Positions 17,819 to 38,367 are shown, counted from the stretch's first letter. The stretch: DNA of 64,000 bases from Minisyncoccota bacterium (GCA_022842945.1 JALHOO010000001.1:288040-352039), one strand, 5' to 3'. Program-made: numbers and translations. Notes: generated from the sequence alone by a model not told the origin.

Positions 17819-17831
17819 ATTATTCAAACGG

Positions 17832-21823: not shown

Positions 21824-21892
21824 AGATACATCCTACCGGCCCAACAGTGCTGCGTAAATGAAATGCGGGTCCAAACTCTTGGACCCGCTTTC

Positions 21893-22210
21893 TCAAGCAA
21901 CCACTAAATGCAGTTTTCTCAGCCGCTCCTTGTAATAGGAACAAATGTAGTAGGGAACCCTTGCACGCAAGGTCCAAGCTTCGAAATCGGCTGCCGCAAT
22001 CTTTACGAGCTCAGGATCGCTAACTGGCTTGCACCTGTATTTCGCAAGCGCGAACAGGAAGAGGTCTGCGTCAGACGCGTCCCTCTCCCAGCCAACGGCG
22101 CTCGCTTCTGCGAACAACGCTCGTACACCGTGAAGAAGGTTCTTGCGTTGCGACACGTCCTCCGCGATCTTCTGGCAGTCTAGGTTCTCAATGGATGCTA
22201 AATCCATCAT
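21893..22210 (-). CDS. Hypothetical protein (105 aa) between uvrA and uvrC
   Basis: ORF only. Confidence 0.35.
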   Translation of the reverse strand: MMDLASIENLDCQKIAEDVSQRKNLLHGVRALFAEASAVGWERDASDADLFLFALAKYRCKPVSDPELVKIAAADFEAWTLRARVPYYICSYYKERLRKLHLVVA

Positions 22211-22277
22211 GATGCTTCCCTCCCAAGGACAATGTATCTAAAGCCTAAGTGTAGCACGCGCATAAGCGCACTATCCC

Positions 22278-24944
22278 CTAAGACTTCTTAACCGGCTTCT
22301 GGTGCTTCTTAAGAAGCTTTGCGAGGTACGTTCCCGTGTGGGATCCGGCGGTTTCCGCAACCTCCTCAGGCGTTCCCTTCGCTACAATCTTTCCGCCTCC
22401 GGTGCCTCCTTCCGGACCAAAGTCTATGAGATAGTCTGCAGACTTAATAACGTCGAGGTTGTGCTCAATCACCACAACGGTGTTTCCGCGACGCACCAAC
22501 TCCTGCAGGATCTCAATAAGCTTGCGTACGTCTTCGTAATGAAGACCAACCGTAGGCTCATCGAGAAGATACAGCGTCTTCATCGTAATAGGACGGTACA
22601 GCTCAGACGCAATCTTCACGCGCTGTGCTTCTCCTCCAGACAAGGTCGTTGCACTCTGTCCCAGGGTTAAATACTGAAGGCCCGTAGAGTTAAGACTCTC
22701 AAGGCGGTCGTTAATAGCAGGGATATCCTTGAAGAACACCTCGGCCTCTTCAACCGTCATCTGAAGCACTTCGTAGATGTTCTTGCCGCGGTACGTAACC
22801 TCAAGCGTCTCCTTCATATAGCGTGTACCATTACACACGTCACAGGTTACATACACCGTTGGGAGGAAGTGCATCTCAACTGCAATAACCCCATTGCCCT
22901 GACACGCTTCGCAGCGTCCACCCGCAACATTGAATGAGAAGCGTCCTGGCTTCCACCCGCGCGCCCTCGCCTCGCTAGACGCAGAAAAGAGATCACGAAT
23001 ATGTGTAAACGCACCTGTATAGGTTGCAGGGTTTGAGCGCGGCGTGCGGCCAATAGCAGACTGGTCTATGAGCACTACGCGCCCCAAGTACTCGGTTCCC
23101 GTTATGCTTGCGCAGTGTTCAGGTTCGCTCTGTCGGCGTGAGAAACGTGCGGCAACATTCTTGTGCAGAATGTCGTAGAGGAACGTGGACTTCCCAGAGC
23201 CCGATACGCCCGTTATACAGACGAGCTTGCCCAAAGGAACCTCAACGTTCAGGTTCTTGATGTTGTGTAGCGTTGCACCCTTTATCTTAATAGAGCCCTT
23301 CTGACTGGTGCGGCGCTCTTCCGGAAGCTCTACGCGGGTTTCCTCACGCAGGTATGAGAGGGTAGTTGAACCGCTCTCGTTGGTTGGCGCGGTGAGTAAG
23401 TCGTCGAGCCATCCTTCTGCCACCACGTTTCCTCCATGGACTCCCGCTCCAGGTCCAATATCAAGAAGGTAGTCAGCGGCGTAGATAGTGTCCTCGTCAT
23501 GCTCAACCACGAGAATCGTATTCCCCAGCTTCTTAAGGGTAAGGAGGGTATTAATAAGGCGCTCGTTGTCCCTCTGATGCAGACCAATCGTCGGCTCATC
23601 AAGCACGTAGAGTGCTCCCACAAGACCGGTGCCAAGCTGAGACGCCAAGCGAATGCGCTGTGCTTCCCCACCTGAAAGCGTAGCCGCTGAGCGGTTAAGG
23701 GTGAGGTAGTCGAGTCCAACGTTCAACATGAAATCAAGACGTGCCGTAATCTCGCGAAGAATCGGGAACGCAATCTCAGACTTCATCTCAGAGAGCACGA
23801 GCGTATCCATGAAGTCTTTCGCTTCTTTAATCGACATGCCCACAAAGTCCACGATGTTTGTACCTACGTCCGTGAGTTCGTCTTCGTTCACGTTCATCTT
23901 CTTTTTAGTCGAAAGGTACACACGAAGCGCTTCAGGACGCAGACGCTTCCCTTCACACACCGGACACACCTCGTCCGAGAACAGAGACTTCGTACCAAGA
24001 CCGTTACAGTTTGGACACGCACCATACGGACTATTAAAGGAGAAGAGACGTGGCTCAACTTCTGGGAAGGACGTGCCGTCTATAGGGCAGATAAACTTAG
24101 CTGAGAGGGTCTCCATAGAGCCGTCTGCGTGCTTTATCTTAACGAGCCCGTCACTCTCCTTGAGAGCCAATTCTAGGGCTTCTGAGAGGCGCTCCTTAGC
24201 TGCGTCCGGACTCCTATCGAAGTCTGAGACGTAGATAGAATCCACAATTGCGTCGATGTCATGACGCTTATTGCGATCAAGTGTTACCTTCTCGCGAAGC
24301 GCGTGTGGCTTCCCGTCTATAAGCACCTTCTCGTATCCCTTTCCGAGAAGATCATAGAGGAGCTGGTAGTACTCACCTTTGCGACCAACCACCACCGGCG
24401 CATAGATAGTTATCGCCGTCTTATCAACCGCAACGCCCATAACCTCTTCCTTTGTGCGCGTATCGTTACGCTTCTTAATATTCTCCTGCACCATGCGGAT
24501 CATCTCCTCTTTTGAGAGCTTTTCGATAGGCACATCATGGTTGATGCAGTACGGCTGTCCTGCACGTGCGTAGAGCACGCGAAGGTAGTCATAAATCTCC
24601 GTAACCGTAGCAACCGTTGAGCGCGGGTTATTAGAACGAGACTTCTGGTCTATGGAAATAGCCGGCGCGAGTCCCGTTATCTCATCCACGTCAGGCTTCT
24701 GCATCTGGTTCAAGAACTGGCGGGCGTATGCAGACAAAGACTCTACATAGCGACGCTGTCCCTCAGCAAAGATAGTGTCGAAGGCGAACGAAGACTTTCC
24801 GGAGCCCGAGAGTCCCGTAACAACGGTCATGGCACCCCGAGGGAACTCGGTACTGATGTTCTTTAAGTTATGGGTACGCGCACCCTTCACGCGGATCCAG
24901 TCCTCGCCTATGTGTTGTTCGTGTTTCTTGGTGACCTTCTTCAT
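22278..24944 (-). CDS. uvrA: Excinuclease ABC subunit A
   Basis: 888 aa with two ABC modules, 'GLSGSGKSS' and 'GVSGSGKST' P-loops, and Zn-finger Cys clusters. Confidence 0.97.
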
Positions 24945-25073
24945 GTATAGAAATGCCCTGCCCGTGTCGGGGCAGGTACCCTAGGAATGTATCACATTAT
25001 GTACCTGAAGGCTTTGTGAGTAGCGTACACACGTTTTGTGTGCGAAGGTCTACACAGAGAGGAGACTATTCTT

Positions 25074-25274
25074 ATGTTCAATCTTCAGTACCTCCCCATC
25101 GTCCACTTCTTCTGGATCCGGCATCGTACCTGCTGGCGCAAAGTGAAGCATGCAAACCAAGCAACTGCTGCACGCATTGCAAAGCGCACCGGACCTAATC
25201 TGCACGAGTACAAGTGTCCGTACTGCAGGAAGTGGCATGTGGGGCACCTGAAAGCAAAAAGGCTTCGCCCGTAA
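25074..25274 (+). CDS. Small Cys-containing (zinc-ribbon-like CPYCxxxH) hypothetical protein
   Basis: An 'aggaga' RBS lies 8 nt upstream of the ATG at 25074. Motif 'YKCPYCRKWHVGH'. Confidence 0.4.
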   Translation: MFNLQYLPIVHFFWIRHRTCWRKVKHANQATAARIAKRTGPNLHEYKCPYCRKWHVGHLKAKRLRP

Positions 25275-25302
25275 ACAGGCGAAGCCTTTTACCTTTTTTC
25301 CC

Positions 25303-25683
25303 TTATGCTGCAGCGAGCATCCCTTCAATCTTCGCAACAATCTCCTCAACGGCAACTTCAGCCTTAATGAGGTAGTCGTTAGCACCAAGAGTCTTTGCCT
25401 TTTCAATATCAGCCTCTGCACCGAGGTTTGATACCACAATAATAGGGGTGGACTTGAGCTCGTCGGCTCGGCCACGGATAGAGGAAAGCACCGCAAAGCC
25501 GTCCATAGTTGGAAGCATAAGATCAAGAAGCACGAGCACCGGCTTGTTGGTCTCAAACAGCGCGAGTGCTTCGTTTCCGTCTGAGGCGTAGAGCGTCTGA
25601 TACTTGCCCGCTAGCGTGTGGCCAAGCAGGTTTTTAAGCACAGGGTCGTCTTCAACCACGAGGATGAATTTGGTGTCAGGCAT
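25303..25683 (-). CDS. Single-domain response regulator (CheY-like receiver)
   Basis: 'ILVVEDDPVL...LLDLMLPTMDG...' carries the conserved receiver Asp/Lys pattern. 126 aa. Confidence 0.8.
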   Translation of the reverse strand: MPDTKFILVVEDDPVLKNLLGHTLAGKYQTLYASDGNEALALFETNKPVLVLLDLMLPTMDGFAVLSSIRGRADELKSTPIIVVSNLGAEADIEKAKTLGANDYLIKAEVAVEEIVAKIEGMLAAA

Positions 25684-25699
25684 AAGAAAAGTATAGCAC

Positions 25700-26782
25700 C
25701 TAGCCCGCAAGCGGTAGAGAGAGGACAAACGTAGTCCCCAGCCCTGTACCATTGCTCTCAAAGGCTAGATCTCCCCCGTGGTCTGTGGCCACAGTGCGAG
25801 CGATATAGAGCCCAAGACCGTTCCCGCCGTTCTCTTTGGCTATAGCGTTTGGTGCCCTATAGAAGCGCTCAAAGATATTCCCCTTGTCTTCAGGCGCAAT
25901 ACCAATACCCGTGTCCTTCACACGCACGAGAGCACGCCCTGGAACTATTTCTACCGTCACTCGCACAGATCCTCCTGGTGGCGTATAGCGAATGGCGTTC
26001 TCGACAAGGTTGTTGAGCACCCACCGTATGCGCTCCCTATCAACCGTTACCCGTGCGCTTGCTTCTCCCGTCTTCTCAAAGAGCAAAGAGACCTGCATCT
26101 TTCCTGCGAGCTCCTGGAAGTCAGTGACGACACTCGTAACAATCTCGTCGAGCTGCGTCTTCTGCATAGTGTACTTGTACTTCCCTGACTCAATGCTTGA
26201 AATATCAAGGAGTGTTCCAACTACCGACACAAGCTGGTGGCTCTTCTCAACCGCGCTCGCAACCAGAGACTTCTGGCTCTCGGTTAACTGCTCCATCTGG
26301 AGCGCTTCTAGTGCCCAACGAATACCGGTAAGGGGAGTGCGGAGCTGGTGTGCAGCGGTTGAAATGAAGTCAGACTTCACGCGGGAAATCTCTGTATCGT
26401 GTTTGTGTACTTCGTCTACGCTCTCCGTGAACGTATCAAACGCTGCCGAAAGGGTACGCACCTCCTTTGGCGTCCAGCCCTGCATGGGCTCTGGCTTCAC
26501 CCCCGTCTCAGAGAACGTCTGCATACCCTTAGTTATGGTGTATATAGGGTGCGCTATAAACTTCCCCACCATAAAGAACAAGAGAGCGAGGAGTGCTGCG
26601 ACAAGTACGAACGAGACAATGGAGGTGGTAATAACCAAATCAACGAGTGCCTGGTTGTTCTCTATGCCAACCAAAAGCGGTGCCAGCTCGCTGTAAAGCA
26701 GAAAAGCAGTGAATGCAATACTTCCAAGAGAAACTGCAAACACTCCCGTAAGGAGGAACGCCATGAAAAGCCGTATGGTCAT
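25700..26782 (-). CDS. Sensor histidine kinase (2 TM + HisKA + HATPase_c)
   Basis: H-box 'ISTAAHQLRTPLTGI'; G-boxes 'GGNGLGLYIARTV...GTGLGTTFVLSLPL'. Confidence 0.85.
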   Translation of the reverse strand: MTIRLFMAFLLTGVFAVSLGSIAFTAFLLYSELAPLLVGIENNQALVDLVITTSIVSFVLVAALLALLFFMVGKFIAHPIYTITKGMQTFSETGVKPEPMQGWTPKEVRTLSAAFDTFTESVDEVHKHDTEISRVKSDFISTAAHQLRTPLTGIRWALEALQMEQLTESQKSLVASAVEKSHQLVSVVGTLLDISSIESGKYKYTMQKTQLDEIVTSVVTDFQELAGKMQVSLLFEKTGEASARVTVDRERIRWVLNNLVENAIRYTPPGGSVRVTVEIVPGRALVRVKDTGIGIAPEDKGNIFERFYRAPNAIAKENGGNGLGLYIARTVATDHGGDLAFESNGTGLGTTFVLSLPLAG

Positions 26783-26804
26783 ATCCGTATGCTAGCACGC
26801 ACCC

Positions 26805-28940
26805 CTAGCGTCCACGACGCTTTGCACTAGGCTTCTTTGCGGGACGCTTCTTCTCAGGAATATCCTTCCCTTCAAGCGCGTAGATCTCGTCACGCAGAAT
26901 TGCCGCAGTCTCGAAATCAAGCGCCTCTACCGCATCTGCCATCTGCTGGCGCTTTGCTTTCATAAAGGCTTCAGGGTCTTCCTTATACAGCGCACCATCG
27001 AGCTGCAGAAGTCCGGACACCGTCTTCTGATGCTCTGAACGCATAGACTCCGCAATGTCGCGTATCTCTTTCTTAATAGTGAGAGGAGTGATGCCATGCT
27101 TCTCGTTGTAGACAAGCTGAATCTTCCTTCGGCGCTCAGTCTCTCCAATGGCGCGCTCCATAGAGCCCGTCATTACGTCGGCATAGAGAATAACCGTGCC
27201 CAGTACGTTGCGTGCTGCGCGTCCAATAGTCTGGATGAGCGAGGTCTCAGAGCGAAGGAATCCTTCCTTGTCTGCGTCAAGAATACCCACAAGCTCAACC
27301 TCAGGCAGGTCGAGTCCCTCGCGAAGCAAGTTCACACCCACAAGCACATCGAACGTTCCCCTACGGAATGCCGTAAGGATATCGATGCGGTCTATGGTCT
27401 TCACGTCTGAGTGGAGGTACTCGGCCTTCATGCCACGCTCTCTGAGGAACTCAGCAAGGTCCTCTGCCATCTGCTTGGTGAGGGTGGTGGCAAGCGCGCG
27501 TCCTCCGCGCTTAATAACGATCTCTGATTCCCGTATGAAATCAGCTACCTGCCCCTTATAGTCTCCACTCTCAACAATGGGCTTAATCGTAAGCTCCGGA
27601 TCAATAAGTCCTGTGGGACGAATAATCTGCTCTGCAACTTGCCCGTGAGGCGCCACACTGTGCTCTATCTCGTATTTTCCAGGAGTAGCTGAGGTGTAAA
27701 TAGTCTGGCCGATGCGCTCTTCAAACTCGTCGAACTTCAAGGGACGGTTGTCTCTGGCGGACGGCAGACGGAATCCGTGCTCAACGAGCACGTCTTTGCG
27801 TGAACGGTCTCCCGCATACATACCCCCAACCTGCGTAACGGTTACGTGAGACTCGTCGATAACCGTAAGGAAGTCAGGCTTTCCTTCTTTGGTGTGCGGG
27901 AAGTAGGAAAGCAGGGTGTGTGCCGCCTCTCCAGGCTCTCGTCCATCAAAGTGGCGGGAGTAGTTCTCAATACCTGAGGTGTAGCCAATCTCTCGTATAA
28001 GGGCGAGATCGTGCTGAGTCCTGCGCTTCAAGCGCTCATACTCAAGTACCTTCTCTTCGCGCTTAAAGACTGCAAGCTGTTCCTCGAGCTCATTCTTGAT
28101 GCTTTCAATTGCACGAGCCCTTCCTTCCTCGTCTGTTACGAAGTGTTTGGCAGGGAAGACGAATAGGGAATCAGGTGTAGCAGTTAACGCACGAGACACC
28201 GGGTCAAGGCATTCAATTCTAGATACCTCATTTCCATCAAAGAGAATGCGGTACACCACACGTTCGTTGGTTGGCATGAGCTCTATAGCGTTCCCAACAG
28301 CCCTAATCTTTCCGGGTTCAAGGTCTGCGTTAGTGCGCTCGAAGTAAATACCAATGAGTTTGCGGATAAGTGCCGCACGATTCTCTTCCCCGCCAACCAA
28401 AAGCTTTACGTGACGCTTCTCATAGTTCTCAGGCGAACCGAGTCCGTAAATAGCTGATACCGACGCTACGATAATCACATCCTTGCGCGTGAGGAGTGCC
28501 TGGGTAGCAGCATGACGCAGGCGATCTATCTCTGCGTTAATCTGAGCCTCCTTTTCAATGTAGGTGTCTGAGTGCGCGATATAGGCCTCCGGCTGGTAGT
28601 AGTCGTAGTAGGAGACGAAGTAGTGCACAGCGTTCTCTGGAAAGAACTCCCTGTACTCCTGCGCGAGTTGAGCAGCGAGGGTCTTGTTGTGCGCCATAAC
28701 AAGCGTTGGCTTCCCTACATTCTGAATAACGTTGGCGATGGTGTACGTCTTGCCGGAACCTGTAACACCAAGCAGGGTCTGGTGTCGCATACCCTTCTGT
28801 ATGCCTTCGGTAAGCTTTTCTATAGCCTTCGGCTGGTCGCCAGCGGGCGGGAAGGGAGAATGCATCTTGAACGTTGCCATAATGGTGTTCAGTGTACCTG
28901 TGGTGGATGAATTAATGAAGAAGGAGTGGTTGTTTGCCAA
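26805..28940 (-). CDS. uvrB: Excinuclease ABC subunit B
   Basis: 'GVTGSGKTYT', a helicase core and the C-terminal UVR 'AAILRDEIYAL'. 711 aa. Confidence 0.97.
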   Translation of the reverse strand: MANNHSFFINSSTTGTLNTIMATFKMHSPFPPAGDQPKAIEKLTEGIQKGMRHQTLLGVTGSGKTYTIANVIQNVGKPTLVMAHNKTLAAQLAQEYREFFPENAVHYFVSYYDYYQPEAYIAHSDTYIEKEAQINAEIDRLRHAATQALLTRKDVIIVASVSAIYGLGSPENYEKRHVKLLVGGEENRAALIRKLIGIYFERTNADLEPGKIRAVGNAIELMPTNERVVYRILFDGNEVSRIECLDPVSRALTATPDSLFVFPAKHFVTDEEGRARAIESIKNELEEQLAVFKREEKVLEYERLKRRTQHDLALIREIGYTSGIENYSRHFDGREPGEAAHTLLSYFPHTKEGKPDFLTVIDESHVTVTQVGGMYAGDRSRKDVLVEHGFRLPSARDNRPLKFDEFEERIGQTIYTSATPGKYEIEHSVAPHGQVAEQIIRPTGLIDPELTIKPIVESGDYKGQVADFIRESEIVIKRGGRALATTLTKQMAEDLAEFLRERGMKAEYLHSDVKTIDRIDILTAFRRGTFDVLVGVNLLREGLDLPEVELVGILDADKEGFLRSETSLIQTIGRAARNVLGTVILYADVMTGSMERAIGETERRRKIQLVYNEKHGITPLTIKKEIRDIAESMRSEHQKTVSGLLQLDGALYKEDPEAFMKAKRQQMADAVEALDFETAAILRDEIYALEGKDIPEKKRPAKKPSAKRRGR

Positions 28941-30636: not shown

Positions 30637-30728
30637 TAGGACCAGAAAGTCCTTTTCATCGCAATAGTGTTGAAGCGGACTAAACGTCGGCATTCGCCGT
30701 CGTTCACACCAGCGTGAGGAATCACACC

Positions 30729-31427
30729 ATGCAAAAGACCACCATCTTGCGGGGGGTGACCCTCGCGATCGCTGCCATGAGCCTCGCGGCCTGCGGCAGC
30801 ACCGGGAACAACTTCCGCGGCACCGACTACAACGGCGCCGTTTCGGGGCAAATCACCCCGGAGCAGTCCAACGTCGAGTTCACTGTCGGCGTCGCCTACG
30901 ACATCTACACGGGCTTCGACGAGAACGGGCACATCAACCCGGATCGTCCGTTCACCCGCACCGAGTCGGTCATGATCGCGGAAATCGAAACCCGCTGTGA
31001 GCGCAAGGTGCGACAGGCCGAACGTGTCGCTCGGGAAGAGTTCGGAAAGGGCACCTTCTTCTCGGTCGTCGGCGCCTTCGCCTACGCGGCGATCGCCACG
31101 GCGATTCCCGGCGCGGACGTCGCCAACAACGCCATCACCGGCGGCGGCGCATTCGGAGCCAGCGCCGCTGTCACGGGTGAAACCATGTGGGATCAAACGC
31201 GAGGGATTTACTACTCCACCTGCGTGTCCAACTGGGTGAGCGCGAACAAGGCGGATGTGGGCGATCGTCGCCTGGGTGACGTCCTGGTCAGTCCTCTGCT
31301 TCGCGGTCGGGCTCCCCGTCCCACCATGGGCTCGGGCGAAACCCTGCGCCGCGACGCCGACGACGACAGCTACGACGACCTGCCTTCGGAGTCGGCCCCC
31401 GTGCCGACTCCGATCGTGCCGATGTAA
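30729..31427 (+). CDS. Putative lipoprotein (signal peptide + LAACGS lipobox; Gly/Ala-rich glycine-zipper-like segment), GC-rich foreign composition
   Basis: 'MQKTTILRGVTLAIAAMSLAACGS'. Codons are strongly GC3-biased, unlike neighbours. The antisense ORF 30606..31196 is spurious. Confidence 0.7.
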   Translation: MQKTTILRGVTLAIAAMSLAACGSTGNNFRGTDYNGAVSGQITPEQSNVEFTVGVAYDIYTGFDENGHINPDRPFTRTESVMIAEIETRCERKVRQAERVAREEFGKGTFFSVVGAFAYAAIATAIPGADVANNAITGGGAFGASAAVTGETMWDQTRGIYYSTCVSNWVSANKADVGDRRLGDVLVSPLLRGRAPRPTMGSGETLRRDADDDSYDDLPSESAPVPTPIVPM

Positions 31428-31495: not shown

Positions 31496-32017
31496 CTACT
31501 GAACGCTCACGAGCTCAACCTCAAATACGAGAGTTGCGTTGGCAGGAATAACTCCTCCCACAGCCTGATTTCCGTATGCGAGTGTAGGCGGGATAACAAG
31601 GAGACGCTTGCCGCCTACTTTCATACCCTTAACCCCTTCATCCCATCCACGGATAACCTGTCCTGCGCCAAGTGGGAACGTAAACGCTCCACCATGGTTT
31701 GCAGATGCATCGAATACGGTTCCGTCTGGAAGCGCACCGACGTAGTTAACGGATACCGTTGAGCCAGTTGTGGCCTCAGGACCAGAGCCCACAACGAGGT
31801 CGGTAACAACGAGTTCGGTTGGCAATGGCTCAGAAGGGTTAAGTGCTAGATCCATAGGGGCGGTTGTAGTGCTGATAGTAGTAGTGCCGACAGTCATTTC
31901 CTCCTGAACAGGGGCAACACCCCCGAACGAGGAAAGCATTGGCGTTCCAAGAGCAAGGAAGCCAAGCGCTACGATAACCGCGAGCGCTACAGCAATTCCA
32001 GTTCCAGTGACATTCAT
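31496..32017 (-). CDS. FKBP-type peptidyl-prolyl cis-trans isomerase, membrane-anchored/secreted
   Basis: C-terminal 'GAGQVIRGWDEGVKGMKVGGKRLLVIPPTLAYGNQAVGGVIPANATLVFEVELV' is the FKBP_C signature. Confidence 0.9.
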   Translation of the reverse strand: MNVTGTGIAVALAVIVALGFLALGTPMLSSFGGVAPVQEEMTVGTTTISTTTAPMDLALNPSEPLPTELVVTDLVVGSGPEATTGSTVSVNYVGALPDGTVFDASANHGGAFTFPLGAGQVIRGWDEGVKGMKVGGKRLLVIPPTLAYGNQAVGGVIPANATLVFEVELVSVQ

Positions 32018-32019
32018 AG

Positions 32020-32331
32020 CTATTCTTTATTAGTGCCGGTGACAGCAAGTATATCATCCGTGAGCTCAGCCACGGTTTCAGCCACAGCTGAGTCAGCGTC
32101 TGGCACACGCTCCTTCAGAAAGGCTTCAACGGTCTCCTCGTCTGCGTCAGAGTCCATAAGAGCCGCAAACTCATCTCGCGACTTCTCATCCATGCGCTCA
32201 ATAAGACGCACCATAGAGCCACGGAATACTATTTCGTTTAACTCAATCAATAGTGCCTCCTGCTCTTCGGGAGCAAGGGTCTCAAGTTCAAGCGCAGACA
32301 AAAGCTCGTTAGATGTGTGGGTAGTGTTCAT
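32020..32331 (-). CDS. Small acidic hypothetical protein (103 aa)
   Basis: ORF tightly coupled (3-nt gaps) to the flanking genes on the same strand. Confidence 0.45.
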   Translation of the reverse strand: MNTTHTSNELLSALELETLAPEEQEALLIELNEIVFRGSMVRLIERMDEKSRDEFAALMDSDADEETVEAFLKERVPDADSAVAETVAELTDDILAVTGTNKE

Positions 32332-32334
32332 AGA

Positions 32335-35184
32335 TTAGCGACGGGTTGGGATGGGCTGGTAATCTTCAGGACCTGGAATCGGGGGCACCGGTATCTCAAT
32401 TCCTCCTCTCACGGTGTACGGCACAACCATACCAGCACCGTCATTACTGTTCGGGTCAAACACCACGCCACGCACAATGCGCTCGAGTCCTCCAAGGACC
32501 GTCATATTCTCCTCAATGTAGTAGACCGGCGTATCAGGTTGGGTGCGCCCAATTCTCTCTGCATATTCGATTGCAAGCGCATAGTTCGCATCGTTATCAG
32601 CGCCTCCATGCGCAAAGTACTTCCCATCTGCAAGAGACACATCAGGCTTACTGAGATCAACACCATAGGCATTTATGTTGCCGCTAACAGTCTCAGGTGT
32701 ATTGTCTGGAGCAATCTCTGTGCGTACAGGTTCTGTCTCAGCCACCTGTGGTTGAGATTCTACGGATACTGGCGACGGCATAGCTTCTGGAGCAGACACA
32801 TCAAGAGACTGCACCTCGGGCACCACTACTGGATCTATACCCTGATACTCAAACGAGCGGTCCACAGGTACCACTCGCACCTCAGAAGGTTCTACTGGAG
32901 CAGCGTCAGGTGTAGGCGCCTCTGAAACAACCGGTTCTGCTGCGGACTCATTTGACACGACCTCTGCACTTGCGACAGGAGGCGCAACCTCCCTAGGAGG
33001 GAACTCATGTACCTCAACACCGTTGGATGCAGATGGATTGTTCTCAAGAATAAGTCGTGGGACTTCTCCTTCACGAACAAACCAGACGTTCTCTTTAGCA
33101 TCTACAACAAGTTTGTCGCCTACTTCCATAACCATACTTTCTCCCGTTACCGGGTCGAATGCACCAATAGCATCAGAAAGCTGTGTGGGAGTTAGTTCTC
33201 CATTAAGGAGACAGTTTCCAACTGGAGTTGAACCATTGAATCCAGACTCACGAAGGCCCGTGAACAAATGGTTGAATCCTTCTCCCTGTTCAATCTCTAC
33301 GGTTCGAAGCATGCCCTCGGGAGCCGTAGGTGTTACATACGAGGCTTCAGCGCTTGGTGTAGGCACTGCGTCGCGAGTTGATGCCTCTTCAACTCGTACA
33401 CCCGCGTCAATTCCGTTACCTGTCTGTACTGCATCAGCCGCATCTTGAACAACAGACAGATCTGCAAGGAGTGCTGCGCTTCCTGCACCAAATCCCATAG
33501 CGGTAAGGGCCTTGATGAGCACCTTACGTCTCTGGAAGGCCATCTCAGACGAATCGATAGTAAGCTTCTCTCGCTTCTCGTCCATTGCCTGAAGAGCATC
33601 GAGTGTTAGCCCGCTTGAGACATCCATATTCTTCCCTGCCTTGCGGAGCGACAGCCTTGCCTTCTCTTGAGCCTTCCTACCGAACAGTTCAAAGACTGCC
33701 CCGGCACCTTCTCCGGCCGCAGCACCCACGAGTGCCCCAGCCATCGAGCGTGCGAACTTAATTCCTCCACCCATAGCGAGAGCGGTAAGTCCAAGTGGCG
33801 CAATAACCCCAGCGGCGCCAAGTACACCCGCACCAAGAGACACCACCGCAATACCACCCGCCGCCTGTATGGCACGCGCTCCCCACTTTCCATGCTTCTC
33901 TACAAGAGCCACGTTAAGTCTTCCAGACCACGCAAGACCCTTCTCAAGAGCATTCTTTCCTCGAGAGCTGAGCGCTTCTTCGCGTGCGGCAAGCTTCTTC
34001 TCTGTTAGAGGGCGTATAACATTGCGATACGTGAGGTAGCTTGAGACACGCTCTTGCGTACTGTATGCGCGAGCCTCAGCACGCTTAAGGAACCTTTCGA
34101 AGGACATCACGGTCCCGTCTGCATTTCGCGCAATCTTGTCTGAAGCAATGAGCCTGTCGTACTTCTGTCTTGTGTGTTCTTCGAAATTCGCATCTCGCTC
34201 GGCTACGCGTTCAGAAACATTGTTAGTCAAAGCATTCGCATACGCCACACGAAGCGCATCATATTCGCCCTTCAGTACTTCAACGCGCTCTGTCTCAGCC
34301 TTCAGCTCCTTGTTTGGGAACAGTCTGTTCCAAATTCTTCGCTTCTGTTCAAGCTCTTTGTATGCCAAGAGGTACTCAGCCTCTTTCGCTTGTACTTGGG
34401 CACGCTCTTCTGGGGCGGTAGAGGGCTTTGAGACATCTTCCGGCTTGTCGAGTGCGGCTCGCAATGCGTCATGCTGTTCTCTTGGCGTAAACGGCTCAGT
34501 TGCAGGATCCATTGCAGGTGCACTCTCAAGTGCTGTTAGCGCAGCTTCAGCTGCTTGCAACTCTTCCGTGAAAGCGAGCTGCGCCTTAGCGACACTCGCA
34601 GCGGCGGCCTGCATCGTTGCTTCTGCTGGCTCATTCTCAGCCTGACGTAGTGCCTCCTCAGCCTTACTACGCAATGCATCAGCTTGTCTCTTAGCGGTCT
34701 CGTATCCCTCTAGAGCGCTTAGTGCTTCCGCAGAAGCATTCGCCCCCTTCAACAACCTAAACCTGGAATGAAGTTCCTTTGAGCGATCATCGGTTGCTAC
34801 GTGTGTAGCATGGAGTTTCTCAATACCCTCCACAATACTTGAGTCAACTACTTTACTGCTTGATTCCATTGCGGTCTTCTTCTTTGTCGCTGGCTTCTTT
34901 GCGGTCTTCCCTCCGCGACTCGAAGGCGTTAGTCCTGCGTGCTTTGCAGTACGCACTGAAGCACCCCCCTCTAACTCTTCTCGAACCATCTGATCTGGTG
35001 CAGTACGCTCAGCCTCAGCTCGTTCCATAAAGCCTGTGAAATCAAGAGGTGCGCCGTCGCTATCCGTGGGAAGCTCTCCCGCTTCTTGCAGTACATAGAA
35101 TTCTGCTTGCTTTTTCTCCTCAAACTCTAGAGAGCGTCCTTTTGGTGGCTTTGGTGGTGGGAATCCAGTCTCGCTCATAGGCAA
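32335..35184 (-). CDS. Large (949 aa) multi-domain membrane protein: N-terminal coiled-coil/low-complexity region, central Gly/Ala-rich TM bundle, C-terminal exported domain; candidate T4SS-like channel/scaffold component
   Basis: Translation shows 'GGIAVVSLGAGVLGAAGVIAPLGLTALAMGGGIKF' and 'ALTAMGFGAGSAALLADL' TM regions. Immediately downstream of, and co-oriented with, the VirB4-like ATPase gene. Confidence 0.5.
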   Translation of the reverse strand: MPMSETGFPPPKPPKGRSLEFEEKKQAEFYVLQEAGELPTDSDGAPLDFTGFMERAEAERTAPDQMVREELEGGASVRTAKHAGLTPSSRGGKTAKKPATKKKTAMESSSKVVDSSIVEGIEKLHATHVATDDRSKELHSRFRLLKGANASAEALSALEGYETAKRQADALRSKAEEALRQAENEPAEATMQAAAASVAKAQLAFTEELQAAEAALTALESAPAMDPATEPFTPREQHDALRAALDKPEDVSKPSTAPEERAQVQAKEAEYLLAYKELEQKRRIWNRLFPNKELKAETERVEVLKGEYDALRVAYANALTNNVSERVAERDANFEEHTRQKYDRLIASDKIARNADGTVMSFERFLKRAEARAYSTQERVSSYLTYRNVIRPLTEKKLAAREEALSSRGKNALEKGLAWSGRLNVALVEKHGKWGARAIQAAGGIAVVSLGAGVLGAAGVIAPLGLTALAMGGGIKFARSMAGALVGAAAGEGAGAVFELFGRKAQEKARLSLRKAGKNMDVSSGLTLDALQAMDEKREKLTIDSSEMAFQRRKVLIKALTAMGFGAGSAALLADLSVVQDAADAVQTGNGIDAGVRVEEASTRDAVPTPSAEASYVTPTAPEGMLRTVEIEQGEGFNHLFTGLRESGFNGSTPVGNCLLNGELTPTQLSDAIGAFDPVTGESMVMEVGDKLVVDAKENVWFVREGEVPRLILENNPSASNGVEVHEFPPREVAPPVASAEVVSNESAAEPVVSEAPTPDAAPVEPSEVRVVPVDRSFEYQGIDPVVVPEVQSLDVSAPEAMPSPVSVESQPQVAETEPVRTEIAPDNTPETVSGNINAYGVDLSKPDVSLADGKYFAHGGADNDANYALAIEYAERIGRTQPDTPVYYIEENMTVLGGLERIVRGVVFDPNSNDGAGMVVPYTVRGGIEIPVPPIPGPEDYQPIPTRR

Positions 35185-35187
35185 TAA

Positions 35188-37554
35188 TTAAGAAAGATAA
35201 CGAGCCCTTATTGATGCTTCAACAGTAGCACGGTCCCGTCCATACGTTAGGTACGAAAGCTCGCGAAGATCGTCCACCTGCGCAAGATTCCCCTTAGTTG
35301 GCGGGAGTGTCTGAATGTTAAACGGCTTCTGTGGTACGCCGTTAGCGAGGATGCGCAGGTAGGCATTGTAATTCTCGACACTCGTGAAGTCAGTAGCCTT
35401 GAAGGTTGGTTCAAATAGCTTCCCGAAGAACTCCCCGTCCTCCTGTCCAACACGGAACACGGCCATAGACCCTACGTTGCCGAACACCGCATCGCGGATC
35501 TTTTCGTCCACTTGCGCCAAGTACTGGTGCGCGATGGTAAGGGAGAGTTTGTACTTGCGAGCTTCTGAGAGGATGCCCGGAATGGACGAGGTCGTGATGT
35601 TCTGGAACTCGTCGATGTAAAGATAGAACGGCGGGAACGCAGTTCCTGGAGAGTCTGCACGAGAGAGCGCTGCCATGAACAGCTTCCCAACAAGGATAAG
35701 GCCAAGGAGATTTGCATTGCGCTCGCCAAGTCTTCCCTTAGAGAGGTTAACCAGGAGAATCTTCTTTGAGTCGATAACATCGCGGAACTTAAAGGAGCTT
35801 TCTTGCTGCCCGATGATAGGGCGCATGAAGTCGCTTCCCGTGAACTCGTCGAACTTGTTCGTGATGTACGGCACGATGTTCTGCAGAGACGCTTCGCCTT
35901 CAGCCTTTGTGGCAATCTCATTCCAGAACTGGTTAACCACCGGATTGTTGCTCTTTGCGAGCTTCATGTTCCTGAACTCAGCATTTGAGAGTACGCGCCC
36001 AATGTCCATAAGCGTAGAACCGGACGCTGGGTCTTCCATAATGAGCTGCGTCGCATTGCGGAAGTACTGCTCGAACGCCGGACCCATAGACTCCGGTACG
36101 TCCCCATAGAGCTGGCGGAATATTGCAAGCATCTCGTTCACAATGAAGGACTTCTGCTCCGGGCGACGCACATCGTACTCAAGCATGTTGAGACCGAACG
36201 GACGATCTATGTATGCAGGGTCGAAGTAGATAACGTCTTCGTACCGCTCTGGCGGAATGATGGAAAGGATATCGAGGATGTCGTTGCCGTGCGGATCAAT
36301 AAAGCAGACACCTGCGCCGTTCTTTATGTCCTGCTCAATGAGCGTTTTCATAAACGACGTCTTTCCAGCGCCCGTCTGTCCAATAACATAGAGGTGGCGG
36401 AGACGATCCTCGTCTGAAAGCTTTACATCCGTTGCCTGTCCGCGGAACGTGTTCTTTCCAAGCAACAGACCCTCGCGTGGCAACTCTGTAGGAGCGGCAG
36501 CAACGGTTGCCCTGGACTGCTTTAGGTGTGGAGACGAGTTAATGCCAGACGGCGGGAAGTGGTAAAGCGTGGTGAGCTCGCGAAGAGAAAGAGGGAGGTT
36601 GGTACTTGCGCGATACAGACGGAAGGAGAAGTCACGCATCAATTCCTTTAGACTTCCCTTACTTGGCCTTCTAAACTCAATACGATTCCCCATGGTGTTA
36701 TCAAACTGATTGAACGCAGACTCGAGTTCAGTGAGCAATTGATGCGCACGTCCCTGATCTCCAGAAGACGTAACCAGACGAATGTTCGTTGCAATAACCG
36801 GAGCGACTATCTTCTTCTCAACCATCTCAATCGCCTTCTGATCTATCGGCTCCTGGCTTGTCTGCTTTTTCTTCGTAAAGATAAGGCTCGCTGCTTCTCG
36901 TGCGAGATCTCCCACAAAGGTCTCAGGCAAACTAAACGCACGCGAACGGTGCTCTCCCTGACGCAACGCATGCAGAATGCGTCTATAGTGCTCGATGTAG
37001 TGATTCCCCGCAGGCTTAAACACAATCTGGAGTGATGCACCTTCGCCTTCTGGTGCAATCTTAGCGAAGGCATTCAGGATGGAGTTGAGGGGATCGTAAT
37101 CAAAATCCTGATAGTCCTTAAGTGGCAGCATTGCCTTGTCCTTGAGTGTGGCAACCGACGCAAGAGATACGCCGCCCTCCACAAAGACGTTGTAATCATT
37201 CGGCTGGGCCTGAAGTCGGGCATTCGGGAATATAGCAAGCAGCTGGTTCTCAAAGAGATCCCTCCGAGTGTTTGGTACGCTTACATAAAACGTGAGGTGT
37301 GGGGCATCCACAGGCACCGCAAGTTCAAGAGTGAGGTATGCGGGTTCTCCTCGTCCTGCATGTTCAACCGCGAGCATACCTGAATAGAACTGCTCCATAG
37401 AGGAGATGAGCTCTTTGAGGGCCTTACCCTTAGATTCCTCGCTGCTGTTGGCCTCAGGCAATGCAATCTCATACAGAGTCATGCGAAGCGCTTTCCATTC
37501 AGGCTGGTTCTCTGCAAGACCCTTAGCCTGCATACCCGCTACAAGGTACTGCAC
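35188..37554 (-). CDS. VirB4/TrbE-like (CagE_TrbE_VirB family) secretion/conjugation ATPase
   Basis: 788 aa. Soluble N-domain, then Walker A 'VIGQTGAGKTSFMKTL' and Walker B 'FYLYIDEFQN'. Further motifs 'LTIAHQY' and 'GSMAVFRV'. No N-terminal TM, which argues against VirD4. Confidence 0.55.
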   Translation of the reverse strand: MQYLVAGMQAKGLAENQPEWKALRMTLYEIALPEANSSEESKGKALKELISSMEQFYSGMLAVEHAGRGEPAYLTLELAVPVDAPHLTFYVSVPNTRRDLFENQLLAIFPNARLQAQPNDYNVFVEGGVSLASVATLKDKAMLPLKDYQDFDYDPLNSILNAFAKIAPEGEGASLQIVFKPAGNHYIEHYRRILHALRQGEHRSRAFSLPETFVGDLAREAASLIFTKKKQTSQEPIDQKAIEMVEKKIVAPVIATNIRLVTSSGDQGRAHQLLTELESAFNQFDNTMGNRIEFRRPSKGSLKELMRDFSFRLYRASTNLPLSLRELTTLYHFPPSGINSSPHLKQSRATVAAAPTELPREGLLLGKNTFRGQATDVKLSDEDRLRHLYVIGQTGAGKTSFMKTLIEQDIKNGAGVCFIDPHGNDILDILSIIPPERYEDVIYFDPAYIDRPFGLNMLEYDVRRPEQKSFIVNEMLAIFRQLYGDVPESMGPAFEQYFRNATQLIMEDPASGSTLMDIGRVLSNAEFRNMKLAKSNNPVVNQFWNEIATKAEGEASLQNIVPYITNKFDEFTGSDFMRPIIGQQESSFKFRDVIDSKKILLVNLSKGRLGERNANLLGLILVGKLFMAALSRADSPGTAFPPFYLYIDEFQNITTSSIPGILSEARKYKLSLTIAHQYLAQVDEKIRDAVFGNVGSMAVFRVGQEDGEFFGKLFEPTFKATDFTSVENYNAYLRILANGVPQKPFNIQTLPPTKGNLAQVDDLRELSYLTYGRDRATVEASIRARYLS

Positions 37555-37577
37555 GAGGAAACGATGGAAATCGTCCT

Positions 37578-37925
37578 CTAAGTGCGCATTGTTGAGCTTT
37601 GAAAGAATGGTAAAGGCATTGTGTATACCCTTTCCTCCATAACAGTGCGCAGTTCCGCAATCGCCTCATCGTTCTGTTCAGGATCAAGATTGAGCGTAAG
37701 AGTTTCAGCATGTGTAGTGGCCTCCCGGTCACTAATCTGATATTCCTTCGCAAGCGTCCCTTCCGGTCCTGACATGCGGTGATGCAGAATGCGCTCATGT
37801 GCAATGTCTTTGAGTGGGCGCTCGCGTTTCAGAGTTGCAAGCTCCGCTTCCTTTGCAGAAATCTGCTCACGCAAGAAGCGTAACTCCTCCTCCGGAGAGG
37901 TGATGGGTAGTATGGGTCCCTCCAT
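37578..37925 (-). CDS. Hypothetical coiled-coil protein (115 aa; start MEGPILPITSPEE)
   Basis: Internal ATG of the longer ORF 37578..38300. The longer form would overlap a well-supported + gene. Sits directly upstream of the VirB4-like gene. Confidence 0.4.
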   Translation of the reverse strand: MEGPILPITSPEEELRFLREQISAKEAELATLKRERPLKDIAHERILHHRMSGPEGTLAKEYQISDREATTHAETLTLNLDPEQNDEAIAELRTVMEERVYTMPLPFFQSSTMRT

Positions 37926-38022
37926 TCCCTTTAGTATATAGGATAGACGCACTAGATTTCTGGTACTTCTATTAGGATAACGGTATAGTCCCTTCAGAAT
38001 CTTTGAACGAGGGGATCTGTTA

Positions 38023-38313
38023 ATGAACGAAAGAGAAGAAGCACTGAGACTTGTGTTGAGGGGTGCACAATTGCTTGACGAACGTGCACCTGGAAAGCTT
38101 GAGAGCGTAGACCACACCAACCTGTATCTGAGCTCATGCACTAAGTGCGTGCTGGGGTTCATATACGGCCATGTAAAGAAAGGGATGACTGAGCTAGGGT
38201 TATCCTTGGAAGACATGAAGGGGTATGGCTTCAGCGATACCCTGCCCGGAGGCGTTCTTGGCGAAGCGTGGCGTACCCTTATCGCTGAGCGCAAAGGCAT
38301 ACGCTACTGCTAA
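38023..38313 (+). CDS. Hypothetical protein (96 aa)
   Basis: RBS 'gagggg' lies 8 nt upstream of the ATG. Confidence 0.45.
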   Translation: MNEREEALRLVLRGAQLLDERAPGKLESVDHTNLYLSSCTKCVLGFIYGHVKKGMTELGLSLEDMKGYGFSDTLPGGVLGEAWRTLIAERKGIRYC

Positions 38314-38367
38314 TACCACGAAGGCCCGGACACTGCGTCCGGGCCTTCATTGCACACATGGAGAGGA

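What the first reader, a model, noticed from the sequence alone, without database searches (positions are those of the whole stretch)
32335..37925. Type-IV-secretion-like module: VirB4/TrbE-like ATPase plus 949-aa multi-TM giant protein and small coiled-coil protein
- Three co-oriented, tightly packed genes.
- 35188..37554 has a soluble N-domain followed by Walker A (GQTGAGKTS), Walker B (LYIDEFQN) and further VirB4-like motifs, with no N-terminal TM.
- 32335..35184 encodes a 949-aa protein with a long coiled-coil or low-complexity N-region, a Gly/Ala-rich TM bundle and a C-terminal exported domain. It could be a VirB6/TrbL-like channel or a surface effector.
- In reduced-genome episymbionts such modules are proposed to mediate host attachment or DNA uptake.
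- The usual partners (VirB2/3/8/9/10/11) are not evident nearby.
Basis: partly seen in the sequence, partly recalled or inferred. Interest (0 to 1): 0.55.

Follow-up and report, generated by a model that had tools for sequence, protein, structure and literature searches.

The report
Orphan coupling-protein ATPase with membrane partner
This is a conserved two-gene chromosomal pair of Paceibacteria-type ultra-small bacteria, made of a membrane-anchor-less relative of conjugation "coupling" ATPases (broken here by a one-base deletion) and a fast-evolving membrane protein; it is not a VirB4/VirB6 secretion core, and what it transports is unknown.

Summary
The ORFs and motifs are real, but all lie on the minus strand, and there are two genes, not three.

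- **Gene count.** The "small coiled-coil protein" (37578..37925) is the first ~98 codons of the ATPase gene. It is cut off by a 1-nt deletion at 37632/37633. All ~80 relatives examined encode one ~912-aa protein.
- **Partner.** The 949-aa protein matches no known family and shows nothing VirB6-like. It has a cytoplasmic coiled coil, three hydrophobic segments and an acidic exported part with a conserved ~90-aa "D1" domain.
- **Conservation.** The partner follows the ATPase in 60 of 70 related species.
- **Context.** The surrounding genes are housekeeping (FKBP, TGT, UvrB). No relaxase or VirB genes lie nearby.
- **Most likely function (inferred).** A relaxase-less T4CP-type translocase held at the membrane by a lineage-specific partner. 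The substrate is unknown.

Moderately interesting: a new variant of a known kind.

The parts
35188..37925 (-). Whole T4CP-type ATPase gene (~912 codons in relatives), interrupted here by a 1-nt deletion
   Evidence: The closest 119 database hits are mostly 905-930 aa and start MEGPI.PI.SPEEEL. All loci but one match in a single frame. The DNA alignment shows the deletion.
37578..37925 (-). About 98 genuine codons are followed by 18 out-of-frame codons and a TAG stop.
   Evidence: The region is helical in the model. It is less conserved than the rest of the protein (72% falling to 29% identity across relatives).
37632..37633 (-). Frameshift site: one base missing (GAGGA-AAGGG against GAGGAGAAGGG in relatives)
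   Evidence: the downstream frame is open from 37632. There is no X XXY YYZ slippery motif, judged from the sequence.
36547..37419 (-). N-domain (Pfam DUF8128, precomputed), an alpha/beta fold; residues ~170-460 in 912-aa numbering
35188..36474 (-). C-terminal P-loop translocase domain of T4CP type, with a helical insert between Walker A and Walker B
36358..36381 (-). Walker A motif, GQTGAGKT
   Evidence: invariant in alignment A2.
35599..35625 (-). Walker B motif, YLYIDEFQN
   Evidence: invariant in alignment A2.
32335..35184 (-). Partner gene: a fast-evolving membrane protein (949 aa from TTG; 947 aa from ATG at 35178)
   Evidence: A large ORF follows the ATPase immediately in 60 of 70 relatives.
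33880..35184 (-). Cytoplasmic N-terminal region of the partner (residues 1-435): long helices or coiled coil, with an internal repeat (residues 27-58 resemble 342-373)
   Evidence: An HMM of this region finds 21 of 63 positional orthologues.
33445..33879 (-). Gly/Ala-rich hydrophobic cluster of the partner: a TM hairpin at ~438-478 and a TM at ~554-576, separated by a basic loop
   Evidence: Hydropathy scan and segment charges.
33016..33342 (-). D1, the conserved extracytoplasmic domain of the partner family (G-x-G motif; alpha/beta)
   Evidence: Iterated HMM finds it in 46 of 63 downstream proteins, always after the TM cluster. 65 cluster representatives in 1.84 billion proteins carry it, nearly all of them 640-1360 aa. 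Model pLDDT 63-80.
32338..32682 (-). D2, a variable C-terminal domain of the partner, lying after a Pro/Glu/Val-rich linker
   Evidence: Shared only with the partners in L003 and L017.
32020..32331 (-). Small acidic DUF5663 protein, frequently next in the same operon-like string
   Evidence: Pfam 4e-7. Present downstream in 35 of 80 loci, always on the same strand.

Best explanation
The locus is a chromosomally fixed two-gene module of Paceibacteria-type Patescibacteria.

**Gene 1** encodes a ~912-aa cytoplasmic P-loop ATPase of the type IV coupling protein lineage (VirD4/TrwB/TraG).
- It belongs to the sub-family that has no transmembrane anchor and carries an N-terminal DUF8128 domain.
- The same sub-family occurs on Gram-positive and archaeal plasmids, next to relaxases, and in Bacillus phages (SPO1 gp27.4).
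- In this window the gene is split by a 1-nt deletion. That is either a very recent lesion or an assembly error.

**Gene 2** starts 9 nt after the ATPase stop codon (3 nt if the TTG is the start). It encodes a rapidly diverging membrane protein with:
- a ~430-aa cytoplasmic coiled coil;
- three hydrophobic segments;
- an acidic exported part carrying a conserved D1 domain.

**Proposed mechanism (inferred, not shown).**
- The ATPase forms a hexameric translocase.
- The partner holds it at the membrane. In canonical T4CPs the N-terminal TM domain does this job; in the phage relatives separate 'anchor' proteins were proposed to do it.
- ATP hydrolysis then recruits or pumps a DNA or protein substrate towards a channel. 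That channel could be the partner itself or a VirB4-type system encoded elsewhere.
- The variable ectodomain faces the wall or the host surface.
- No relaxase is present, so classical conjugation is unlikely.

**Shown:** gene structure, family affinity, topology outline, synteny and conservation.
**Inferred:** hexamer formation, the anchoring role of the partner, and the substrate.
For: **Family affinity of the ATPase**
- Pfam: DUF87 37.6 bits and TraG-D_C 23.4 bits, both above their cut-offs.
- The best NCBIfam hits are TraD/VirD4-type models, matching the P-loop region only.
- Family profile against PDB sequences: DotL 0.017, TrwB 0.028, HerA 0.16.
- hhalign of the C-domain against TrwB: 95.5%, E 1.4e-8, 261 columns.
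- TrwB finds the gene by tblastn in 74 of 81 loci; TrwK finds it in none.

**Plasmid homologues sit in the T4CP position**
- In B. subtilis NZ_OX419581 a 913-aa homologue lies directly upstream of a replication-relaxation protein. A separate VirB4 (AAA_10, 285 bits) lies in the same Tcp-like cluster.
- In Embleya NZ_CP108778 the order is PrgI - (XF1762 family protein) - VirB4 - homologue - relaxase - NlpC/P60. There the homologue passes the cut-offs for T4SS-DNA_transf, TrwB_AAD_bind and TraG-D_C.
- BLASTP gives 2e-50 and 2e-27 to these homologues, against 1e-3 and 1.9 to their neighbouring VirB4s.

**Phage relatives**
- phrog_5156 matches at 5e-72 over the full length.
- SPO1 gp27.4 and phage G gp156 are hit.
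- PMC3357382 describes these as TM-less coupling ATPases with a relaxase and proposed separate membrane anchors.

**The module is conserved and chromosomal**
- At least 596 GTDB species carry the ATPase.
- The gene order holin_4_2-like, ATPase, partner, DUF5663, FKBP, TGT, UvrB recurs on one strand.
- The partner lies immediately downstream in 60 of 70 loci, with gaps of 12 nt or less or a 4-nt overlap.
- ATPase identity falls from 87% to 63% across relatives, similar to UvrB (92% to 74%) and TGT (90% to 71%). The partner falls from 50% to undetectable.
- GC content matches the surroundings.

**Literature**
- PMC12102498 reports 5,713 VirD4-type T4CP homologues in 2,918 Patescibacteria genomes. 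Only 148 lie near virB4, and the authors consider exaptation to other functions possible.
Against: - **The partner may be dispensable.** 10 of 70 relatives keep a full-length ATPase, N-terminal extension included, with no partner in the flank. The partner may therefore not be an obligatory anchor.
- **No evidence of physical interaction.** Co-folding could not be run.
- **Membership evidence for this protein itself is thin.** T4CP-specific models other than TraG-D_C fall below cut-off (TrwB_AAD_bind 15.3 against 20.5). All NCBIfam T4CP models are far below threshold.
- **The best structural matches are to VirB4 (TrwK), not to a T4CP**.
- **hhalign also gives 93.5% to one actinobacterial VirB4**, so the split between T4CP and VirB4 is not clean.
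- **The ATPase-domain part of the model is poor** (pLDDT 30-60).
- **The gene is frameshifted in this genome,** so it may not be functional here.
- **The Saccharibacteria T4CP homologue was reported as non-essential** (PMC12102498). I did not test whether it is orthologous to this gene.
Confidence: 0.55

Rival explanations
1. One reading: a minimal T4SS core in which the ATPase is a divergent VirB4/TrbE and the 949-aa protein is a VirB6/TrbL-like channel.
For: - The architecture fits VirB4: a soluble N-domain, then an ATPase domain, with no TM segment.
- hhalign gives 93.5% to the Embleya VirB4.
Against: - No VirB4 profile matches.
- TrwK does not find the gene by tblastn, while TrwB does. hhalign to TrwK is 22% and covers only the P-loop.
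- Plasmids that carry a homologue also carry a separate genuine VirB4, and the homologue sits beside the relaxase.
- hhalign of the N-domain finds nothing in four VirB4 sequences.
- The partner has only ~3 hydrophobic segments, no TrbL/VirB6 or PrgH match, and no structural hit.
- No VirB3 or VirB8 genes lie nearby.
Confidence: 0.12
2. A HerA/FtsK-type housekeeping DNA translocase for chromosome segregation, repair or defence. On this view the membrane protein is merely a co-transcribed surface protein.
For: - DUF87 (HerA central domain) is the top Pfam hit.
- HerA and mad8 models are hit in PADLOC.
- Conservation resembles that of core enzymes, and the gene is stably linked to UvrB; in this window UvrA and UvrC also lie nearby.
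- The ATPase persists without the partner in 10 of 70 species.
Against: - HerA and FtsK models score below cut-off (FtsK_SpoIIIE 15.8 against 24; NCBIfam HerA E 0.086).
- T4CPs score higher than HerA in every comparison.
- No NurA-like nuclease, Sir2 or other HerA partner lies adjacent.
- The hit to the PADLOC mad8 model is weak: E 1e-12 over the ATPase core only.
- In 60 of 70 species the ATPase stop and the partner start are tightly juxtaposed, which argues for a functional pair.
Confidence: 0.18
3. A decaying remnant of an integrated conjugative element or prophage, that is, a pseudogene with no current function.
For: - The gene is frameshifted in this window.
- Its homologues are typical of plasmids and phages.
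Against: - The same gene order among housekeeping genes recurs in dozens of species.
- All other relatives are intact in one frame.
- Divergence in this lineage is not accelerated relative to UvrB and TGT.
- The Walker motifs are intact.
- No integrase, relaxase or compositional anomaly is present.
Confidence: 0.07

Closest known systems
TM-less 'coupling ATPases' of Bacillus phages (0305phi8-36 orf201, SPO1 gp27.4) and Sulfolobus pING/pNOB8 TraG-like proteins (PMC3357382)
   Same: These are direct sequence homologues (SPO1 gp27.4 E ~1e-12, phage G gp156 2e-32, pNOB8 2e-14; phrog_5156 5e-72 over the full length). They share a soluble N-domain, a T4CP-like ATPase domain and the lack of a TM helix. 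Membrane attachment was proposed to come from separate proteins.
   Different: The phage and plasmid versions sit beside a MobC-like or replication-relaxation relaxase. Here there is no relaxase, the gene lies in a fixed chromosomal position among housekeeping genes, the protein has an extra ~140-aa helical N-terminal extension, and it has a dedicated variable membrane partner.
Plasmid T4CP-position proteins annotated as DUF87 or 'type IV secretory system conjugative DNA transfer family' (B. subtilis NZ_OX419581, 913 aa; Embleya NZ_CP108778, 812 aa)
   Same: 22-26% identity over 590-740 residues, covering both domains. The length is the same as the B. subtilis protein.
   Different: These lie inside complete MPF_FA/FATA-type transfer clusters with a VirB4, PrgI or TcpC/D/E, a relaxase and a wall hydrolase. 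None of those genes is present here.
TrwB/VirD4/DotL canonical coupling proteins
   Different: Canonical T4CPs have an N-terminal TM domain and no DUF8128 domain, and they are linked to a relaxase or a T4SS. Sequence identity is very low and largely confined to the P-loop region in phmmer.
TrwK/VirB4
   Same: The overall N-domain plus ATPase architecture without TM helices is shared, and TrwK is the best structural match.
   Different: There is no sequence-profile similarity outside the P-loop. The protein is not linked to VirB3, VirB6 or VirB8. On plasmids it coexists with a genuine VirB4.
Orphan VirD4-type T4CP homologues of Patescibacteria (PMC12102498)
   Same: This gene is probably one of the 5,713 homologues reported, which are mostly encoded away from virB4. 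That assignment is an inference from its T4CP-like profile hits.
   Different: That study did not describe the DUF8128 architecture, the absence of a TM domain, or the conserved pairing with a hypervariable membrane protein. I did not test orthology to the Saccharibacteria gene that was found non-essential.

Membership tests
Type IV coupling protein (VirD4/TrwB/TraG) | P-loop NBD of the FtsK/HerA/T4CP type with Walker A and Walker B motifs | tested here: met
   GQTGAGKT and YLYIDEFQN are present. DUF87 scores 37.6 bits against a cut-off of 23.2. hhalign to TrwB gives 95.5%.
Type IV coupling protein (VirD4/TrwB/TraG) | Curated T4CP profiles reach their thresholds | tested here: inconclusive
   TraG-D_C scores 23.4 against a cut-off of 22 (passes). 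TrwB_AAD_bind scores 15.3 against 20.5 (fails). T4SS-DNA_transf is not hit. The NCBIfam TraD/VirD4 models score 25-43 bits against cut-offs of 250-650. The plasmid homologues do pass the Pfam T4CP models.
Type IV coupling protein (VirD4/TrwB/TraG) | All-alpha domain inserted between Walker A and Walker B | tested here: inconclusive
   Eight helices span residues 590-719 between strands of the NBD, but model confidence there is low. The hhalign match spans TrwB residues 114-393.
Type IV coupling protein (VirD4/TrwB/TraG) | N-terminal transmembrane domain | tested here: not met
   No N-terminal hydrophobic segment; the only stretch at KD >= 1.2 (735-758) lies inside the ATPase domain. PMC3357382 reports that about 75% of this sub-family lack TM helices, and PMC7431656 notes that T4CP domain architecture is heterogeneous.
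Type IV coupling protein (VirD4/TrwB/TraG) | Genetic linkage to a relaxase and/or a VirB4-type T4SS | tested here: not met
   None is present in the 64-kb window. tblastn finds none in the +/-8 kb flanks of the 80 relatives, and none appears in the Pfam-annotated loci L001 and L003.
VirB4/TrbE/CagE | Match to VirB4 profiles (TIGR00929, CagE_TrbE_VirB, AAA_10, TraC_F_IV) | tested here: not met
   TIGR00929 scores 11.9 bits against a cut-off of 643. No VirB4-type Pfam family is hit at E <= 0.1. The genuine VirB4s on the plasmids score 285 bits on AAA_10.
VirB4/TrbE/CagE | Two-domain fold (VirB4 N-terminal domain plus RecA-like C-terminal domain) | tested here: inconclusive
VirB4/TrbE/CagE | Linkage to VirB3, VirB6 and VirB8 | tested here: not met
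VirB6/TrbL (for the 949-aa protein) | Polytopic protein with 5 or more TM helices that matches TrbL/VirB6 or PrgH profiles | tested here: not met
   About 3 hydrophobic segments. No Pfam or NCBIfam hit at E <= 0.1. No tblastn similarity to TrwI/VirB6. Foldseek finds only generic coiled coils, with a low-confidence model.
HerA / FtsK-SpoIIIE | Family profiles reach threshold; HerA has a nuclease partner; FtsK has TM and gamma domains | tested here: not met
   FtsK_SpoIIIE scores 15.8 against a cut-off of 24. NCBIfam HerA gives E 0.086. No nuclease gene is adjacent. HerA ranks below the T4CPs.

The most novel reading that the evidence does not exclude
The pair is a self-contained, T4SS-independent trans-membrane translocation device specific to Paceibacteria. 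In this reading, an ATPase that combines a VirB4-like N-domain with a T4CP-like motor (possibly an evolutionary intermediate between the two ATPase families) is docked by a hypervariable partner that contacts the host. It would move DNA or proteins between the episymbiont and its host without a relaxase, a pilus or a VirB channel.
Probability: 0.15. Interest if true: 0.75.

Novelty: new variant of a known kind. Interest (0 to 1): 0.42.

Why it matters
Patescibacteria depend on other cells, and their T4SS genes are the first of any bacterium shown to be essential. The literature also records thousands of 'orphan' T4CP homologues in these genomes whose role is unknown (PMC12102498).

This locus shows that one such orphan has four notable properties in a large Paceibacteria clade:
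- it is conserved about as well as core repair and tRNA-modification enzymes;
- it has no membrane anchor;
- it probably carries a VirB4-like N-domain;
- it usually sits next to, and is probably co-transcribed with, a fast-evolving exposed membrane protein.

That gives a concrete two-protein hypothesis to test for how these cells move macromolecules. It also gives a candidate surface protein that appears to be evolving fast, as expected for host or phage contact.

If the pair instead turns out to feed the known VirB4 system, the finding is a useful annotation rather than a discovery.

Tried and rejected
1. **Homologue search with the 949-aa protein** found only 4 proteins, and a D1 profile search found 3 fragments. 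The word index fails on this fast-evolving, low-complexity protein. I used positional orthologues and an exhaustive phmmer search instead.
2. **AlphaFold model of the partner** (4-sequence alignment) had pLDDT 49, and Foldseek returned only coiled-coil noise. This says nothing about D1 function or VirB6-likeness.
3. **The ATPase model** was good only for the N-domain, because all available alignment rows were at least 69% identical. The T4CP-versus-VirB4 question therefore had to rest on sequence and context.
4. **hhalign of the N-domain** against four VirB4 sequences found nothing, so the VirB4-NTD likeness is structural evidence only.
5. **Looking up the window's own 788-aa product** found no record. 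The Logan contigs that carry the partner are too short to reach the frameshift, so the deletion could not be checked independently.
6. **Programmed frameshifting** was considered and rejected, because there is no slippery heptamer at the site (judged from the sequence).
7. **A defence-system reading** (PADLOC) gave only weak ATPase-core hits to mad8 and HerA.
8. **The idea that the ATPase's N-terminal helical extension exists to bind the partner** is not supported, because species lacking the partner keep the extension.
9. **Promoter and terminator scans** found fewer sites than in shuffled sequence, so operon boundaries remain undefined.
10. **Literature searches** for 'DUF8128', and for 'DUF87' together with 'Candidate Phyla Radiation', found no papers.


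Full report
**1. What is in the sequence**

All the features lie on the minus strand.
- ORF 32335..35184 encodes 949 aa from a TTG start. The public copy, P0121, starts two codons later at the ATG at 35178.
- ORF 35188..37554 encodes 788 aa from a GTG start.
- With the ATG start, 9 nt separate the ATPase stop codon from the partner start; with the TTG start, 3 nt.
- Walker A (GQTGAGKT, 36358..36381) and Walker B (YLYIDEFQN, 35599..35625) are present.

**2. The third 'gene' is a frameshift product**

- A search of 5.8 billion proteins returned more than 6,700 relatives of the ATPase. Of the closest 119, nearly all are 905-930 aa, not 788.
- Their first ~98 residues (MEGPI.PI.SPEEELRFLREQI...) are the product of the small ORF.
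- A DNA alignment with two syntenic relatives shows that the window reads GAGGA-AAGGG where they read GAGGAGAAGGG. This is a one-base deletion at 37632/37633.
- The ATPase frame is open from 37632 downward.
- In 80 species-representative loci the gene matches in one frame (one exception, L073, in two collinear pieces).
- The window lineage shows no extra divergence relative to UvrB or TGT, and the catalytic motifs are intact.
- The lesion is therefore either very recent or an assembly error. I could not decide which, because no independent contig covers the site.
- The site has no slippery heptamer, so programmed frameshifting is unlikely.

**3. What the ATPase is**

*Profile and sequence evidence*
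- Pfam gives DUF87/HerA-central (37.6 bits) and TraG-D_C (23.4 bits), both above their cut-offs. FtsK_SpoIIIE and TrwB_AAD_bind are sub-threshold.
- The best NCBIfam hits are TraD/VirD4-type coupling proteins, matching only around the P-loop and far below threshold. The VirB4 model TIGR00929 scores 11.9 bits against a cut-off of 643.
- The homologues carry the precomputed Pfam domain PF26449 (DUF8128) in the N-terminal half.
- A family profile searched against PDB sequences ranks DotL, then TrwB, then HerA. All are marginal.
- hhalign of the C-domain gives:
  - 95.5% to TrwB over 261 columns;
  - 22% to TrwK, covering the P-loop only;
  - 93.5% to one actinobacterial VirB4.
- TrwB used as a tblastn query finds the gene in 74 of 81 loci. 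TrwK finds it in none.

*Context of homologues elsewhere*
- A tblastn search of 72,556 plasmids found homologues in 537 records, from Bacillus, Streptomyces, Clostridium, haloarchaea and Sulfolobus pNOB8. They are annotated as DUF87, 'T4SS DNA-binding' or 'conjugative DNA transfer family'.
- In a B. subtilis plasmid, a 913-aa homologue lies directly upstream of a replication-relaxation protein. It is part of a Tcp-like transfer cluster that has its own VirB4 (AAA_10, 285 bits).
- In an Embleya plasmid the order is PrgI, (XF1762 family protein), VirB4, homologue, relaxase, NlpC/P60. There the homologue passes the Pfam cut-offs for T4SS-DNA_transf, TrwB_AAD_bind and TraG-D_C.
- BLASTP of the window protein gives 2e-50 and 2e-27 to these T4CP-position proteins. 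It gives 1e-3 and 1.9 to the VirB4s of the same plasmids.

*Phage relatives*
- The family is also phrog_5156 (5e-72 over the full length) and includes SPO1 gp27.4 and phage G gp156.
- Pathria et al. (PMC3357382) described exactly these proteins as VirD4/TraG-like coupling ATPases. They noted that the proteins lack the N-terminal TM domain and sit next to a MobC-like relaxase, and they proposed that other proteins provide membrane attachment.

*Conclusion on lineage.* By lineage the ATPase is a TM-less T4CP-type translocase, not a VirB4.

**4. The VirB4-like fold**

- AlphaFold2 was run on the full-length relative P0002 (87% identical to the window protein). Mean pLDDT was 60.
- The N-domain (residues 170-460) is confident, at pLDDT 70-93. 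The ATPase domain is poor.
- Foldseek against the PDB puts R388 TrwK/VirB4 first (E 2.9e-6, ~800 aligned columns). DotL follows at 4e-3.
- The excess for full-length TrwK most likely comes from the N-domain, so DUF8128 probably has a VirB4-NTD-like fold.
- This is an inference. I could not see which residues were aligned, and profile comparison of the N-domain with four VirB4 sequences found nothing.

**5. The 949-aa partner**

*Family searches*
- It has no Pfam, NCBIfam, PADLOC or PHROG match.
- Only three close homologues were found in the large database.

*Topology (an inference from hydropathy and charge)*
- A hydrophobic hairpin at ~438-478.
- A basic loop at ~500-553.
- A third hydrophobic segment at ~554-576.
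- An acidic C-terminal region of ~370 aa.
- This gives an N-in, C-out orientation.
- The model (pLDDT 49) shows long helices across residues 113-450 and a small alpha/beta domain at 623-723.

*Relationship to positional orthologues*
- The gene that occupies the same position in relatives is a homologue, but a very divergent and mosaic one. Identity is 50% over the C-terminal 379 aa in L003 and 22% over one domain in L001/L002.
- An iterated HMM shows that a ~90-aa domain, D1 (residues 615-703; G-x-G motif), is present in 46 of 63 downstream proteins. It always lies after the TM cluster.
- An exhaustive phmmer search of 1.84 billion cluster representatives found 65 D1 proteins, nearly all of them 640-1360 aa long with D1 in the second half.

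*VirB6 likeness.* Nothing supports it. The protein has too few TM segments, no profile match, no similarity to TrwI, and no structural hit.

**6. Conservation and context**

- At least 596 GTDB species carry the ATPase. The best 80 matches are all Paceibacteria, Kaiserbacteria or Parcubacteria-type MAGs; some are labelled Saccharibacteria by their submitters.
- The recurring gene order, all on one strand, is:
  - a Phage_holin_4_2-family membrane protein (59 of 80 loci);
  - the ATPase (80);
  - the partner;
  - DUF5663 (35);
  - a membrane-anchored FKBP (64);
  - TGT (58);
  - UvrB (51).
- Of 70 loci with enough downstream sequence, 60 have the partner immediately after the ATPase. The gap is usually 12 nt or less, or the genes overlap by 4 nt. 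The other 10 lack the partner but keep a full-length ATPase.
- ATPase identity across these species falls from 87% to 63%, comparable with UvrB (92% to 74%) and TGT (90% to 71%). The partner decays from 50% to undetectable.
- GC content matches the surroundings.
- tblastn finds no relaxase, VirB4, PrgI, TcpC/E or VirB6 in the window or in the +/-8 kb flanks of the relatives.

**7. Interpretation**

*Shown*
- A conserved chromosomal pair.
- A TM-less T4CP-lineage ATPase.
- A hypervariable membrane partner with an exposed conserved D1 domain.
- No conjugation context.

*Inferred*
- The ATPase works as a hexameric translocase.
- The partner supplies membrane attachment, as the TM domain does in canonical T4CPs and as separate anchor proteins were proposed to do in the phage operons.
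- The substrate, DNA or protein, is delivered either to a channel formed with the partner or to the VirB4-type system that Patescibacteria usually encode near dnaA (PMC12102498).

*Caveats*
- The 10 species without a partner show that the ATPase has a core role that does not need this partner nearby.
- The literature notes 5,713 VirD4-type homologues in 2,918 Patescibacteria genomes, nearly all away from virB4. It also notes that the Saccharibacteria copy is non-essential and raises exaptation (PMC12102498; reviewed in PMC12857230).
- This gene is very probably one of those homologues. I did not test orthology to the Saccharibacteria copy.

**8. Verdict**

- The ATPase is a member of a known but barely studied family.
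- I found no description of the fixed pairing with a hypervariable D1-domain membrane protein, or of the probable VirB4-like N-domain, in the literature I could search.
- This makes the module a new variant of a known kind, of moderate interest.

Noticed in passing
window 37926-38367 (includes + strand ORF 38023..38313): A 440-nt gap lies upstream of the ATPase start. It holds a 96-aa ORF on the + strand with no Pfam match, and this ORF is not homologous to the small gene that occupies the same slot in L003. The slot appears to vary between species: a SAICAR synthase gene plus a 91-aa gene in L003, and a 177-aa gene in L001.
   Followed up: partly
window 30714-31427 (+): A 237-aa lipoprotein-like ORF (LAAC lipobox) sits in a locally GC-rich block (0.574), on the opposite strand between the FKBP and TGT genes. 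It has only a 39% match in L003 and is absent from the other relatives, so this is another variable slot.
   Followed up: partly
window 45524-46024 (+): An NYN-domain protein (Pfam 1.3e-14) has no counterpart in the syntenic relatives, which suggests a lineage-specific insertion.
   Followed up: partly
window 35184-33880 (-), partner residues 27-58 and 342-373: The partner's cytoplasmic region contains an internal repeat of a helix, short hairpin, helix motif (EAGELPTDSDGAPLDFTGFMERAEAE resembles SDKIARNADGTVMSFERFLKRAEARA). A similar motif is present in the L002 orthologue. Its meaning is unknown.
   Followed up: no
window 32020-32331 (-) and 31496-32017 (-): A small acidic DUF5663 protein and an FKBP-type isomerase with an N-terminal membrane anchor follow the partner on the same strand in many species (35 and 64 of 80 loci). 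They could belong to the same functional unit, for example folding of the exported ectodomain, or they could simply be neighbours.
   Followed up: partly
L073:1336-3864: The ATPase match in this relative comes in two pieces and spans only 2.5 kb. This may be a second case of a disrupted or internally deleted copy.
   Followed up: no
L020, L022, L025, L026, L030, L033, L034, L037, L040, L063, L064: Most of these relatives (10 of the 70 loci scored) keep a full-length ATPase but have no partner gene, or have it displaced. Their downstream genes are ~170-200 aa with an N-terminal TM segment (probably the FKBP), or 407-529-aa ORFs ~0.6 kb downstream, not identified (two are the size of TGT).
   Followed up: partly
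window 16001-18000: A low-GC block (0.454, against ~0.52 for the window) contains a 226-aa ORF, a 114-aa ORF and an alpha/beta-hydrolase-like 184-aa ORF. It may be a small island.
   Followed up: no
window 20564-28940 (-): UvrC-like, UvrA-like and UvrB genes, with a histidine kinase and response regulator pair between them, all lie within 8 kb on the same strand just downstream of the module. UvrB is syntenic with the ATPase in 51 of 80 relatives.
   Followed up: partly
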